Positions 34,956-53,797 of a DNA stretch of 64,000 nucleotides are shown here, piece after piece; positions within the stretch are counted from its first letter, which is position 1, and each line of letters opens with the position of its first letter. The notes beneath the pieces are model-generated. The model was given only the letters and a program-made list of their open reading frames with translations. It had not been told where the DNA came from and searched no databases. This DNA is from Oscillospiraceae bacterium (GTDB lineage Bacteria; Bacillota; Clostridia; Oscillospirales; CAG-272), in contig SVTS01000004.1 in the NCBI GenBank assembly GCA_015063645.1, forward strand, positions 1,155 through 65,154, given 5' to 3'. The translations under genes were made by a program, and so were the position numbers.

Positions 34956-35048
34956 GCAAAGGTGGCTGAGCTGGTCTAAGGCGCACGACTGGAAATCGTG
35001 TGTTCGGCTAATAACCGACCGAGGGTTCGAATCCCTCCCTTTGCGCCA
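34956..35048 (+). tRNA. tRNA-Ser (anticodon GGA), CCA encoded
   Basis: Acceptor GCAAAGG/CCTTTGC, anticodon arm CACGA-cuGGAaa-TCGTG, long variable arm, T-arm GAGGG-TTCGAAT-CCCTC, G discriminator + CCA. Confidence 0.9.
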
Positions 35049-35088
35049 AAACAAAAAATCTCGTCTTCGACGAGATTTTTTGTTTTGG
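35047..35088 (+). terminator. rho-independent terminator after tRNA-Ser
   Basis: CAAAACAAAAAATCTCGTC-ttc-GACGAGATTTTTTGTTTTG perfect long hairpin. Confidence 0.8.
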
Positions 35089-35092
35089 CGCA

Positions 35093-35245
35093 GTGATGTG
35101 TTCCGCTGCGCGGAACGTGAAGCGTGCTCTGCACGTGAAGTGTGCCCTGCGGGCACGTGATGGCGCTTCGCACTGATGCGGAACACATCTCTTCACGTTG
35201 CGCCGCAGGCGCAATTCTTCACTTGCCCGCAAGGGCATACTTCAC
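35093..35245 (+). repeat. array of six mini-hairpins punctuated by GTGA(A/T)G (left half) and CTTCAC (right half)
   Basis: GTTCCGC-tgc-GCGGAAC, CGTGC-tct-GCACG, GTGCCC-tgc-GGGCAC, GCG-ctt-CGC, TGCGCC-gca-GGCGCA, TGCCC-gcaa-GGGCA; 12-nt long-range pairing 35095..35106 / 35178..35189. Confidence 0.7.
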
Positions 35246-35301
35246 TTTGCGATATGACAGCATCTGCTCTCACATATATTTACTATCAAAGGAGGCCGCT
35301 C

Positions 35302-35796
35302 ATGTCCCCATCCATCCGCCCCATGACATCCGTCTATCTGATCCGTGACGAATCCTTTCTTCTGCTCTACCGGCAGGGCGGCAGGGTCGTCAGCGATGTC
35401 TGGACCGGCGCCGCCGGCGGGCATTTCGAAGAGGGGGAGATGCGGGATCCCCGGGCCTGTCTGCTCAGGGAGATGCGGGAGGAAATCGGTCTGACAGAGG
35501 CGGACATCGAAGACCTCGCCCTCCGCTACATCACCCTGCGGTATGTGAATGGCGAGATCCGCCAGAATTACTATTTCTTTGCCCGTCTGAAAGACGGCGT
35601 CAGCGGTGATCTCCATTCCACGGAGGGGACGCTCCGCTGGATTCCTTTCACGGACGCGCTCCCGCTTGCAATGCCCGTCAGCGCAAAATATGTCGTGGAA
35701 CATTATCTGAACACAGGACGGTTTGACAACTGCCTCCGGGGAGGTATTTCCGCGCCGGACGGAACGCAGTTCGTATGCATGGACGACACCGTCTGA
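35302..35796 (+). CDS. NUDIX hydrolase
   Basis: Start MSPSIRP with RBS AAAGGAGG; Nudix box GGHFEEGE..x..REMREEIGL. Confidence 0.8.
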   Translation: MSPSIRPMTSVYLIRDESFLLLYRQGGRVVSDVWTGAAGGHFEEGEMRDPRACLLREMREEIGLTEADIEDLALRYITLRYVNGEIRQNYYFFARLKDGVSGDLHSTEGTLRWIPFTDALPLAMPVSAKYVVEHYLNTGRFDNCLRGGISAPDGTQFVCMDDTV

Positions 35797-51469: not shown

Positions 51470-51475
51470 ATCTAT

Positions 51476-51686
51476 ACAGGCATTGATCGGTGAGAATCCG
51501 GCATCCGCTCCCCCAGAGAGCCGCTGTCATGGGCTGCAAGCAGCGGTGGAGTCAGCCGGGCTGTGCCTCCGTGAGCCTGCCGTGCGATACTGTAGCGCGG
51601 CACGTTTCCCGCGTTAAGGGACAGAGTACAAACGAGAGTGGAACCGCGATCCGTCGCCTCTTGGGACGGTTCGCGGTCTTTTTTAT
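51476..51686 (+). promoter_or_regulatory. T-box riboswitch leader (candidate Cys specifier UGC) with terminator
   Basis: AGAGA box, candidate specifier GGGC-UGC-A, T-box sequence GAGAGUGGAACCGCG, terminator GAACCGCGATCCGTC...GACGGTTCGCGGTC + TTTTTT directly upstream of cysE. Confidence 0.75.
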
Positions 51687-53735: not shown

Positions 53736-53797
53736 GTGCCGCAAATACTTGCGGCACGGATTTGGCTTGCCATACTTGCGGCGCAAATACTTGCGCC
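53736..53797. repeat. three tandem mini-hairpin units GC(C)GCAAATACTTGCG(G)C
   Basis: GTGCCGCAA-atac-TTGCGGCAC, partial GCCATACTTGCGGC, GGCGCAA-atac-TTGCGCC. Confidence 0.6.

What the first reader, a model, noticed from the sequence alone, without database searches (positions are those of the whole stretch)
35089..35275. Structured ~150 nt array of six mini-hairpins punctuated by GTGAAG (x4, left) and CTTCAC (x3, right) downstream of tRNA-Ser
After the tRNA-Ser terminator, the sequence is a chain of 3-7 bp stems with 3-4 nt loops. The left half is separated by GTGATG/GTGAAG/GTGAAG/GTGATG. The right half is separated by the reverse complement, (T)CTTCAC, three times. The punctuation motifs could therefore pair with each other and fold the region into a multi-branched structure. 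In addition, GATGTGTTCCGC (35095..35106) is the exact reverse complement of GCGGAACACATC (35178..35189). GCGGAAC also occurs at 35110..35116, which gives mutually exclusive pairings like an attenuator or switch. Four overlapping ORFs are called here on both strands, and all look spurious. The hairpin loops (TGC/TCT/GCA) resemble those of the family A repeats. Candidate roles are a novel structured ncRNA or leader of the NUDIX/TIM-barrel genes, a protein-binding array, or a decayed cluster of REP units.
Basis: seen in the sequence. Interest (0 to 1): 0.62.

Follow-up and report, generated by a model that had tools for sequence, protein, structure and literature searches.

The report
Orphan Gut-1-type word-and-hairpin array
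The block after tRNA-Ser is a real, gene-less copy of a repeat common in gut Clostridia: a short fixed word alternating with tiny hairpins, first forwards, then inverted. This repeat is a relative of the unexplained "Gut-1 RNA" motif and normally sits just upstream of a small four-helix-bundle gene (PF05635), so it is probably that protein's DNA binding site.

Summary
Seven GTGAWG/CWTCAC words lie in 153 nt (shuffles give at most 4). Every spacer holds a perfect hairpin, and there is a 12-nt exact inverted repeat between the array's start and its centre.

The array is not a new class. It is a sub-threshold relative of Rfam Gut-1 (RF01706: 34.9 bits against a cut-off of 50, with a weaker hit on the opposite strand for the right arm).

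Its closest relative is the array in L435/L436 (76% over 155 nt, E 1.4e-19). That array sits between a terminator and the promoter of a PF05635 "four helix bundle" gene. In the window, homology stops after the third CTTCAC. The last unit, the promoter and the PF05635 gene are missing, so this copy is an orphan.

- **Link to PF05635:** 12 of 13 PF05635 loci examined carry repeated short words upstream, in direct and inverted orientation.
- **Word tracks protein clade:** GTGAAAT, GTGAAG, ATGATAT and ACAATTG each go with a different clade.
- **Position:** the arrays usually follow a tRNA or tmRNA gene plus a terminator.
- **Stems:** 380 of 383 stem pairs are Watson-Crick, and most spacers are exactly one hairpin.

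My best reading is a DNA-level binding array for PF05635 proteins (mechanism about 0.45). A role as RNA is not excluded.

The parts
34956..35048 (+). tRNA-Ser(GGA) gene. Arrays of this family typically lie directly behind a tRNA or tmRNA gene.
   Evidence: ARAGORN. Rfam tRNA 56.8 bits. The same arrangement is seen in L387, L396, L403, L415, L416 and L423.
35042..35092 (+). Terminator-type hairpin with perfect 24-nt arms and a 3-nt loop, an A-tract before it and a T-tract after it. It overlaps the last 7 nt of the tRNA and ends 0 nt before the first word.
   Evidence: Inverted repeat I1, 100% complementary. Relatives show the junction 'T-run + CA + first word'.
35093..35162 (+). Forward arm. 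Words: GTGATG 35093, GTGAAG 35117, GTGAAG 35135, GTGATG 35157. Hairpins: F1 35100-35116 (GTTCCGC-TGC-GCGGAAC), F2 35123-35135 (CGTGC-TCT-GCACG), F3 35142-35156 (GTGCCC-TGC-GGGCAC).
   Evidence: Rfam Gut-1 34.9 bits over 35091-35168, full model length. Aligns unit for unit with L436.
35163..35190 (+). Centre. It holds a weak hairpin (GCG-CTT-CGC or CGCA-CTGA-TGCG). It also holds the mirror copy GCGGAACACATC (35178-35189) of the array's start (35095-35106).
   Evidence: The 12-mer GATGCGGAACAC is identical in L435/L436. Start-to-centre mirrors with other sequences occur in L011, L416, L423, L436 and three Weinberg contigs.
35191..35245 (-). Reverse arm, which is the same unit read on the minus strand. 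Words: CTTCAC 35191, 35217, 35240. Hairpins: R1 35198-35214 (TTGCGCC-GCA-GGCGCAA), R2 35224-35237 (TGCCC-GCAA-GGGCA).
   Evidence: Rfam Gut-1 on the minus strand, 23.7 bits, 35193-35247. The R1 stem is identical in L436.
35246..35301 (+). Break of homology. In L435/L436 a fourth reverse unit, a TATAAT promoter and the PF05635 gene follow. Here there is only unrelated sequence, with no convincing promoter, and then the ribosome-binding site of the NUDIX gene.
   Evidence: Alignment with L436. The blastn match ends at query position 162, which is window 35246. The promoter scan found none. tblastn with PF05635 proteins finds nothing in the window.
35302..35796 (+). NUDIX hydrolase gene. It is the downstream neighbour and not part of the repeat.
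   Evidence: Pfam PF00293, E 2.3e-13.

Best explanation
**What it is (shown, about 0.9).** The block is one copy of a widespread repeat of gut Clostridia that includes the Rfam 'Gut-1 RNA' motif. The repeat has five parts in order:

1. a terminator-type hairpin;
2. a forward arm in which a fixed 6-7-nt word alternates with small perfect hairpins of varying sequence;
3. a centre that mirrors the first word plus the first half of hairpin 1;
4. a reverse arm made of the same units on the other strand;
5. in complete copies, a sigma-70-type promoter and a gene for a small PF05635 four-helix-bundle protein (Avd-like, 'S23p').

The window's copy belongs to the GTGAAG/CTTCAC class. It has lost its last unit, its promoter and its PF05635 gene, so it is an orphan.

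**How it works (inferred, about 0.45).** The array is the DNA binding site of the PF05635 protein, which forms oligomers.

- The repeated word is what the protein reads. Each protein clade has its own word.
- The two opposed arms give a symmetric, operator-like platform just upstream of the promoter.
- The palindromic spacers must be able to fold out as hairpins on both strands. When they do, the words lie exactly side by side, as they do in sister clades whose arrays are plain contiguous heptads.

At this locus the orphan array either still recruits a PF05635 protein encoded elsewhere in the genome, or is a decaying relic. I could not test which.
For: **Family membership**
- Full-length sub-threshold Gut-1 hits on both arms.
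- This is the only such hit in the window (E 0.0045).
- Bona fide Gut-1 members have the same two-armed layout: L011 at 63 bits and L183 at 58.2 bits. So do Weinberg's own alignment rows with their flanks.

**Homology to a gene-linked array**
- Window versus L435/L436: 76% over 155 nt, E 1.4e-19 in 3.08 Mb.
- The units are in the same order, with identical U1, centre and R1 stems. U3 is replaced by a different perfect hairpin.
- L435/L436 continue with a promoter, then PF05635, then NUDIX.

**Link to PF05635**
- L387 encodes a PF05635 protein (88 bits) that starts about 25 nt after the array.
- P0093, P0044, P0335, P0320 and P0388 and nine diverse viral-contig loci were examined. 12 of 13 distinct loci show repeated words upstream (L415 weakly). 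L432 retains only remnants.
- The top 7-mer count is 5 or more in 8 of 13 loci, against 0 of 76 control upstream regions.

**Word versus protein clade**
- Clade A (74-87% identical): GTGAAAT.
- Clade B (77-90% identical): GTGAAG.
- L419: ATGATAT.
- L421/L422: ACAATTG.
- Identity between clades is 40-60%.

**DNA rather than RNA**
- Arrays lie between an intrinsic terminator and the -35 box of the promoter.
- 380 of 383 stem pairs in 72 hairpins are Watson-Crick, with only 2 G.T pairs. The same finder gives 12% non-Watson-Crick pairs on shuffled spacers.
- 53 of 86 same-arm spacers are exactly one hairpin with no unpaired base.
- Sister clades have contiguous heptads without hairpins. In L421 these overlap the promoter.
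- Loop bias (TTC, TGC) flips with the arm.
Against: - No binding experiment exists for any member. PF05635 proteins are known only as DGR accessory proteins (Avd) and as uncharacterised proteins (PDB 2RLD).
- Weinberg et al. rated Gut-1 'certainly RNA' from covariation. Covariation cannot tell RNA from folded DNA, but their rating stands.
- Forward-only arrays lie inside a phage head-gene cluster, in the sense orientation, where they must be transcribed (L183).
- Two metatranscriptome contigs cover parts of the window's array at depth 2-5, while the NUDIX gene shows none.
- Stems of 4-7 bp are short for spontaneous cruciform extrusion.
- Most copies I met through DNA searches are orphans. Only 1 of 8 distinct loci has the gene. 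The array may therefore have a life of its own.
Confidence: 0.5

Rival explanations
1. The element works as a structured RNA, the classical Gut-1 reading. The array is transcribed by read-through from the tRNA, or from the other strand. The hairpins hold the GUGAAG words single-stranded for an RNA-binding protein, possibly the same PF05635 protein. Alternatively the two arms pair into a long branched duplex that is cut by RNase III, as the intervening sequences of 23S rRNA that carry PF05635 genes are.
For: - Weinberg et al. rated Gut-1 as RNA.
- The region folds far better than shuffles do, z -4.7 and -5.0. The arms can pair into a structure of -81 kcal/mol.
- The start-to-centre helix covaries across arrays, with one T.G pair in L011 that is a wobble only on the + strand.
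- Arrays in phage L183 lie within an operon in the sense orientation.
- Metatranscriptome contigs cover 34994-35135 and 35180-35257.
Against: - A strong intrinsic terminator lies 0-4 nt before the first word in nearly all chromosomal copies, and the promoter comes after the array. No promoter fits in between.
- G.U pairs are virtually absent, 2 of 383.
- Sister clades have plain heptads with no structure at all.
- The RNA coverage is depth 2-5 in metatranscriptome assemblies, which can hold DNA.
- A natural strain lacks hairpin F1 and with it the start-to-centre helix.
Confidence: 0.2
2. The array is the cis-acting end or recombination site of a small mobile cassette (terminator + array + promoter + PF05635 gene). 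The cassette homes to the 3' flank of stable-RNA genes (tRNA, tmRNA and, in other bacteria, 23S rRNA). The hairpins are recognised as folded single-stranded DNA. Gene-less copies such as the window's would be the equivalent of MITEs.
For: - 8 of about 12 independent PF05635 loci, plus the window, L379 and two Weinberg contigs, lie directly behind a tRNA or tmRNA gene.
- The same module stands behind a 15-nt tmRNA fragment in a different context (L407).
- The family is multi-copy in the metagenomes that hold the window.
- Near-identical proteins occur on very many contigs.
- Tandem copies exist (L414, BAAZ01000130).
- Units come and go between strains (X5, L417, L429 versus L432).
- Perfect palindromes suit folded DNA.
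Against: - I found no transposase, HUH or recombinase gene linked to the arrays. The integrase in L382 belongs to a prophage that uses the same tRNA.
- I found no target-site duplication and no empty site for the window's locus.
- tRNA fragments next to arrays are explained by prophages integrating into the same tRNA (L384, L382).
- Mobility does not explain why the word tracks the protein clade, unless the protein itself is the recombination factor.
Confidence: 0.15
3. At this particular locus the array does nothing. It is a decaying relic left when a deletion removed the last unit, the promoter and the PF05635 gene.
For: - Homology to L436 stops abruptly at about 35246.
- Words are degenerate (GTGATG twice), and spacers leave 1-3 unpaired bases. 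Gene-linked heptamer arrays leave none.
- A strain variant has lost hairpin F1.
- PF05635 genes themselves decay. There is an internal deletion in L386/L388/L390 compared with the intact gene in L387.
Against: - All six hairpins are still perfect, and the 12-nt start-to-centre mirror is exact.
- The array is identical in several independent metagenomes (X1, X6, X27).
- Orphan arrays are very common, which suggests they are kept.
Confidence: 0.3
4. It is an attenuator-like switch or leader that controls the NUDIX/TIM-barrel genes through the competing pairings of GCGGAAC.
For: Mutually exclusive pairings exist (35100-35116 versus 35095-35106 with 35178-35189) and are conserved in the family.
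Against: - No terminator or anti-terminator follows the array.
- Homologous arrays precede quite different genes and lie upstream of promoters.
- The array is not syntenic with the TIM-barrel gene in 22 relatives.
Confidence: 0.04

Closest known systems
Gut-1 RNA motif (Rfam RF01706; Weinberg et al. 2010, Genome Biol 11:R31, PMC2864571)
   Same: - Small hairpins of varying sequence are joined by a fixed word (GUGAAAU in the model, GTGAAG/GTGATG here).
- The start is the same, 'CA(A/G)TGA' directly after a T-run.
- The habitat is gut Clostridia.
- The original alignment rows, read with their flanks, also show the inverted second arm, the start-to-centre mirror and tRNA + terminator upstream.
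   Different: - The score is below Rfam's cut-off (34.9 against 50 bits).
- The word is a different hexamer.
- Rfam models only three forward hairpins and calls it an sRNA gene.
- The second arm, the terminator, the promoter, the PF05635 partner and the lack of G.U pairs are not part of the published description.
PF05635 / TIGR02436 'four helix bundle protein' (23S rRNA intervening-sequence protein S23p; Avd of diversity-generating retroelements; PDB 2RLD, 4DWL)
   Same: Complete copies of the array stand directly upstream of a gene of this family. Family members are known to sit in or beside stable-RNA genes, flanked by inverted repeats, as in the 23S rRNA intervening sequences (PMC4990558).
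   Different: - The window has no such gene.
- No reverse transcriptase or template/variable repeats lie nearby, so this is not a DGR.
- No sequence-specific nucleic-acid binding has been reported for the family. This rests on my own knowledge and on the absence of hits.
Heptad operator arrays of the omega repressor of plasmid pSM19035 (7-bp WATCACW units in direct and inverted orientation upstream of promoters). From my own knowledge, not tested.
   Same: Several copies of a 7-bp word stand in direct and inverted orientation next to a promoter. The words contain the same TCAC/GTGA core. The hairpin-less PF05635 arrays (L418, L421, L422) look very much like this.
   Different: Omega is a ribbon-helix-helix protein, not a four-helix bundle. 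Its heptads are always contiguous. Here most classes put a palindrome between the words.
REP/BIME elements of Gram-negative bacteria and their RAYT transposases
   Same: Both are dispersed intergenic mosaics of small palindromes in both orientations, often just after terminators.
   Different: REP palindromes have a conserved sequence within a genome, and a RAYT gene is present. Here the palindromes differ from unit to unit, only the linker is fixed, and no RAYT was seen.

Membership tests
Rfam Gut-1 (RF01706) | Covariance-model score at or above the curated gathering score (50 bits) | tested here: not met
   34.9 bits on + (35091-35168) and 23.7 bits on - (35193-35247), both spanning model positions 1-77. 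E 1.5e-5 on the 211-nt stretch and 0.0045 on the whole window.
Rfam Gut-1 (RF01706) | Three or more consecutive hairpins of variable sequence joined by a constant GUGAAAU-like word, starting with CA(A/G)UGA | tested here: met
   CAGTGATG-hairpin-GTGAAG-hairpin-GTGAAG-hairpin-GTGATG. The word differs: GTGAAG or GTGATG instead of GTGAAAT.
Rfam Gut-1 (RF01706) | Homology to members that pass the threshold | tested here: inconclusive
   L011 (63 bits) and L183 (58.2 bits) share the architecture but not the sequence. Direct sequence homology was shown only to other GTGAAG/GTGATG-class arrays (L435/L436, L379).
Rfam Gut-1 (RF01706) | Acts as an RNA (sRNA gene) | tested here: inconclusive
   Only depth 2-5 metatranscriptome contigs cover it. 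A terminator lies directly upstream. 2 G.T pairs in 383 stem pairs.
PF05635-linked word-and-hairpin array (unpublished class; defined) | One word repeated three times or more forwards, then three times or more inverted, with hairpin spacers | tested here: met
   4 forward and 3 reverse words, 6 hairpins.
PF05635-linked word-and-hairpin array (unpublished class; defined) | Centre mirrors the first word plus the 5' arm of hairpin 1 | tested here: met
   35095-35106 against 35178-35189, 12 of 12. The same feature, with other sequences, is in L011, L416, L423, L436, BAAZ01000095, BAAZ01000130 and BAAV01002358.
PF05635-linked word-and-hairpin array (unpublished class; defined) | Lies directly behind a terminator, commonly that of a tRNA or tmRNA gene | tested here: met
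   tRNA-Ser(GGA) and a hairpin with 24-nt arms end at 35092. The first word starts at 35093.
PF05635-linked word-and-hairpin array (unpublished class; defined) | Followed by a promoter and a PF05635 gene | tested here: not met
   There is no PF05635 homologue in the window (tblastn) and no promoter match. Homology to L436 ends at about 35246. The copy is therefore an orphan.
PF05635-linked word-and-hairpin array (unpublished class; defined) | A cognate PF05635 protein of the matching clade is encoded in the same genome | not testable with these tools
REP/BIME | Palindromic unit of conserved sequence repeated through the genome | tested here: not met
   The six stems all differ. There is no second copy in the 64 kb.
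Transcription attenuator or riboswitch leader | Terminator or sequestering helix downstream of the competing helices and upstream of the regulated gene | tested here: not met
   No terminator-like site lies between 35093 and 35302. No Rfam cis-regulatory family matches.

The most novel reading that the evidence does not exclude
Gut-1 may not be an RNA gene at all. It would be the operator of a large, uncharacterised branch of PF05635 (Avd-like) proteins. These ring-forming four-helix-bundle proteins would read a clade-specific 7-nt word on DNA. The palindromic spacers would fold out as small cruciforms, so that the words become contiguous only when the DNA is negatively supercoiled or when the protein holds it. 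That would make the array a supercoiling-gated, self-insulated (terminator-capped) regulatory cassette that travels with stable-RNA genes. Orphan copies such as this one would put neighbouring genes (here NUDIX/TIM-barrel) under the same protein's control.
Probability: 0.25. Interest if true: 0.8.

Novelty: new variant of a known kind. Interest (0 to 1): 0.5.

Why it matters
Two long-standing orphans would explain each other. The Gut-1 motif has been catalogued since 2010 with no function. The non-retroelement PF05635 'four helix bundle' proteins number in the thousands of clusters in gut metagenomes and have solved but unexplained structures.

The word-to-clade pairing gives a directly testable recognition code. 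The fold-out spacer idea gives a simple test of whether short cruciforms are used in bacterial gene control.

For annotation, it shows two things. Rfam's model covers only part of one word class of a larger element. And such blocks behind tRNA genes should not be called sRNA genes without transcript evidence.

For this window alone the finding is modest. It is one orphan copy with no demonstrated effect on its neighbours.

Tried and rejected
**Searches that failed or gave nothing**
I could make no genome-wide copy count and no search for a PF05635 gene in the window's own genome.
- Metagenome scan with CGTGAAG x3: all 120 rows were chance matches or coding repeats.
- Viral scans with GTGAAG x3 and GTGATAT x3: more than 95% noise. 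Only L023, L150 and L183 were real.
- Relatives of the L183 portal protein: none but itself. blastn of the L183 region against cultured phages: no match.
- Literature: no paper links PF05635 or TIGR02436 to repeat arrays, and Gut-1 appears only in Weinberg 2010 and one benchmarking paper.

**Comparisons that were not informative**
- Orthologous-locus comparison through the TIM-barrel gene: 22 relatives, but none keeps the tRNA, NUDIX or flanking genes. No syntenic covariation test was possible. Only L011 had an array, at a non-orthologous place.
- Empty-site search in 12 metagenome runs: no array-less allele, only a 19-nt loss of hairpin F1 in X5.
- Search for a second copy of the tRNA 3' end in the window, to define an island: none.

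**Ideas rejected**
- Peptide-coding repeat: word spacings of 24, 18 and 22 nt are not all multiples of 3.
- CRISPR-like array: the units are far too short.
- Integrase arm-type sites: arrays also occur away from att sites and inside phage operons.
- RNase Y processing sites: this does not explain clade-specific words.
- 'Ladder' of four-way junctions as the stable RNA fold: it is no better than separate hairpins (-43.7 against -42.8 kcal/mol) and far worse than arm-to-arm pairing (-81 kcal/mol).
Full report
**1. The observation**

- tRNA-Ser(GGA) lies at 34956-35048.
- A hairpin with perfect 24-nt arms follows at 35042-35092. It has an A-tract before it and a T-tract after it.
- From 35093 the order is GTGATG, hairpin, GTGAAG, hairpin, GTGAAG, hairpin, GTGATG, a 28-nt centre, CTTCAC, hairpin, CTTCAC, hairpin, CTTCAC.

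The statistics support the observation.
- Seven words fall within 160 nt. The largest cluster in 300 shuffles was 4.
- All six spacers hold a perfect hairpin of 4-7 bp. None of 5000 random draws from the window matched this.
- The 12-nt start-to-centre inverted repeat is exact.
- Nothing else like it lies in the 64 kb.

**2. It is a relative of a described motif**

An E-value scan of Rfam gave a full-length match to Gut-1 (RF01706).
- On the + strand the match is at 35091-35168: 34.9 bits against a cut-off of 50, E 1.5e-5.
- A second match lies on the minus strand over the right arm, at 23.7 bits.
- In a scan of the whole window it remains the only such hit (E 0.0045).

The Gut-1 consensus is three hairpins joined by GUGAAAU. 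Weinberg et al. (2010, PMC2864571) found it only in human-gut metagenomes, called it an RNA, and gave it no function.

I read their Stockholm file with its flanks. Their own sequences also show these features:
- a second, inverted arm (AUAUCAC or AUUUCAC, three or four times);
- a centre that mirrors the start of the array;
- a terminator whose U-run abuts 'CA + first word';
- in at least two rows, a tRNA 3' end before that terminator;
- in BAAZ01000130, tandem 240-nt units, each made of terminator + two arms.

Rfam therefore models only part of a larger element.

**3. Relatives collected here**
- L011, a ruminant Clostridia MAG, has a bona fide Gut-1 (63 bits) with four or five ATGATAT forwards and four ATATCAT reversed. 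It lies between a terminator and a TTGACC-17-TATAAT promoter.
- Phage contigs hold arrays. L023 has GTGAAG x4, a centre, then CTTCAC x4, between the terminase and portal genes. L183 has two forward-only arrays flanking a Prp gene (58.2 and 44.5 bits). L150 has an array after a head-tail connector gene.
- A human faecal phage scaffold (L379) has a tRNA-like 3' end, a terminator and a forward array. Its first hairpin is the window's F1 with one compensatory C:G to T:A change.
- A scan for the conserved junction (TTTTTCARYGAAAT...GTGAAAT) gave 13 real two-armed arrays in 15 hits. Most stand directly behind a tRNA 3' end or a tRNA fragment next to prophage ends.

**4. The partner gene**

Earlier notes of this scan claimed a link to small Avd-like genes. 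I treated that as a lead and tested it.

First instance:
- In L387 an ORF starts about 25 nt after the reverse arm. It is a PF05635 protein (88 bits, E 6e-25).
- In three sister strains the same gene carries an internal deletion.

Close homologues:
- They number in the thousands of clusters.
- Contexts for two of them show tRNA-Ser or smpB-tmRNA, then a terminator, a two-armed GTGAAAT array, a promoter and the PF05635 gene.

Diverse homologues:
- A profile of diverse PF05635 proteins retrieved nine further loci from viral contigs.
- All nine have repeated short words upstream, in direct and inverted orientation.
- Some have hairpin spacers: L414 with GTGAAAT, L416/L417 with GTGAAG/CCTTCAC, L419 with ATGATAT.
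- Some are plain contiguous heptads: L418, L421, L422 and, weakly, L415. In L421 the heptads overlap the promoter.

Clade-B relatives:
- The L416 protein has 7,998 relatives with E at or below 1e-10. Three of them, 77-83% identical to it, come from further independent places.
- Two of those places have GTGAAG/CTTCAC arrays. The third, L429-L434, keeps only partly deleted remains.

Quantitative check:
- Protein identity falls into blocks that match the word. Clade A is 74-87% identical and uses GTGAAAT. Clade B is 77-90% identical and uses GTGAAG. L421/L422 are 69% identical and use ACAATTG. Identity between blocks is 40-60%.
- The commonest 7-mer in the 330 nt upstream occurs 5 times or more in 8 of 13 PF05635 loci. 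It does so in 0 of 76 control upstream regions.

**5. Where the window's copy belongs**
- Among 3.08 Mb of loci held, its best match is the array of L435/L436: 76% over 155 nt, E 1.4e-19.
- The alignment is unit for unit. It has the same first hairpin stem (GTTCCGC), the same centre (GATGCGGAACAC) and the same first reverse hairpin (TTGCGCC/GGCGCAA).
- The third hairpin is replaced by another perfect one.
- L435/L436 continue with a fourth reverse unit, a TATAAT promoter, a clade-B PF05635 gene and a NUDIX gene.
- In the window, homology ends after the third CTTCAC (about 35246). There is no PF05635 homologue and no promoter match. An unrelated NUDIX gene starts 56 nt later.

The copy is therefore an orphan, most simply explained by a deletion. 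Synteny with the neighbouring TIM-barrel gene is not kept in 22 relatives.

**6. RNA or DNA**

For DNA:
- (a) In every chromosomal copy examined, an intrinsic terminator lies 0-4 nt before the first word, and the promoter follows the last word. The array therefore sits in a gap that is not meant to be transcribed.
- (b) In 72 hairpins from 16 arrays, 380 of 383 stem pairs are Watson-Crick, with 2 G.T and 1 A.C. The same finder reports 12% non-Watson-Crick pairs in shuffled spacers. At a modest 5% G.U rate the chance of seeing 2 or fewer is below 1e-6.
- (c) 53 of 86 same-arm spacers are exactly one hairpin with no base left over. Folding them out would bring the words into contact. That is the arrangement found without any hairpins in the sister clades.
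- (d) The loops are T/C-rich (TTC, TGC) on the word-sense strand and complementary in the other arm. Each unit therefore has a polarity that flips, as expected for two opposed sets of oriented sites.

For RNA:
- Weinberg's rating.
- The strong predicted folds.
- The sense-oriented arrays inside a phage operon (L183).
- Low-depth metatranscriptome contigs over parts of the array.

I rate the DNA-site reading at about 0.45 and the RNA reading at about 0.2. A mobile-cassette reading gets about 0.15 and partly overlaps both.

**7. Strain variation**
- One metagenome (X5) carries an allele that lacks 19 nt, exactly hairpin F1.
- Other contigs in the same samples match 35175-35225 at about 86% and run on into other CTTCAC or GTGAAG units. 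The class is therefore multi-copy in these communities.
- I found no array-less allele.

**8. Verdict**

'Novel ncRNA or leader' and 'REP cluster' do not.
- The element is a new word-class variant of a known, unexplained motif.
- The link to PF05635 genes and the DNA-level reading go beyond the published description. Earlier agents of this scan have seen the link repeatedly, and I re-derived it here from independent loci.
- For this window the element is an orphan of uncertain present function.

**Limits**
- There is no experiment.
- The window's genome could not be searched.
- The census of PF05635 loci is small (13 distinct loci) and comes from gut and virome assemblies.

Noticed in passing
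window 51474-51664 (+): Sub-threshold T-box leader match (RF00230, 63.4 bits against a cut-off of 93, E 2e-11, full model length). It is probably a real but divergent T-box.
   Followed up: no
window 35042-35092: The tRNA-Ser terminator is a perfect hairpin with 24-nt arms. Its 5' arm includes the last 7 nt of the tRNA (TGCGCCA). Pairing of the 3' arm (GGCGCA) with the tRNA's acceptor end goes beyond an ordinary A-tract/T-tract terminator.
   Followed up: partly
L435:236-1002 and L436:264-1030: The closest relative of the window's array is followed by PF05635 and then an overlapping NUDIX gene (138 aa). The window's array is followed directly by a NUDIX gene (164 aa). The two NUDIX proteins are not orthologous (39% over 33 aa, E 0.003). 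This may be coincidence or a functional link.
   Followed up: partly
L386:13283-13435, L388:905-1057, L390:13674-13826 versus L387:1-390: The PF05635 gene behind the tRNA-Ser(GCT) array is intact in L387 (129 aa). In three sister strains it carries the same internal deletion of about 79 codons, which leaves a 50-aa ORF.
   Followed up: partly
L384, minus strand, about 260 nt upstream of the array: A complete tRNA-Leu(GAG) with its own terminator is followed about 130 nt later by a 21-nt direct repeat of its 3' end (CAAGTCTCCTCTCTCGCACCA), then a second terminator and the array. This looks like the scar of a very small or mostly deleted integrated element.
   Followed up: no
L414:450-900: Two complete two-armed GTGAAAT arrays stand in tandem upstream of one PF05635 gene. 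Weinberg's contig BAAZ01000130 has at least four tandem 240-nt copies, each with its own terminator.
   Followed up: no
L417 versus L416; L429 versus L432: Sister strains differ by clean losses of several array units. In L417 the terminator stem is fused to a hairpin of the array. Arrays shrink by unit-level deletions.
   Followed up: no
L422, upstream and downstream of the PF05635 gene: In this hairpin-less class the heptads (AATTGAC/ACAATGG) stand upstream of the gene, and their complement (CATTGTC, five times) stands downstream. The two arms therefore bracket the gene.
   Followed up: no
window 53736-53797: There are three tandem mini-hairpins, (G)CAAATACTTGCG(G)C, in the 474-nt spacer before cysS. 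They have no GTGAAG-type word and give no Gut-1 hit, so they appear to be a different repeat.
   Followed up: partly
L403, L411 (smpB - ssrA - array - PF05635); L379; L419: Several arrays follow the tmRNA gene rather than a tRNA. PF05635 genes thus lie next to tRNA, tmRNA and, from the literature, inside 23S rRNA. This is a striking preference for stable-RNA loci.
   Followed up: partly
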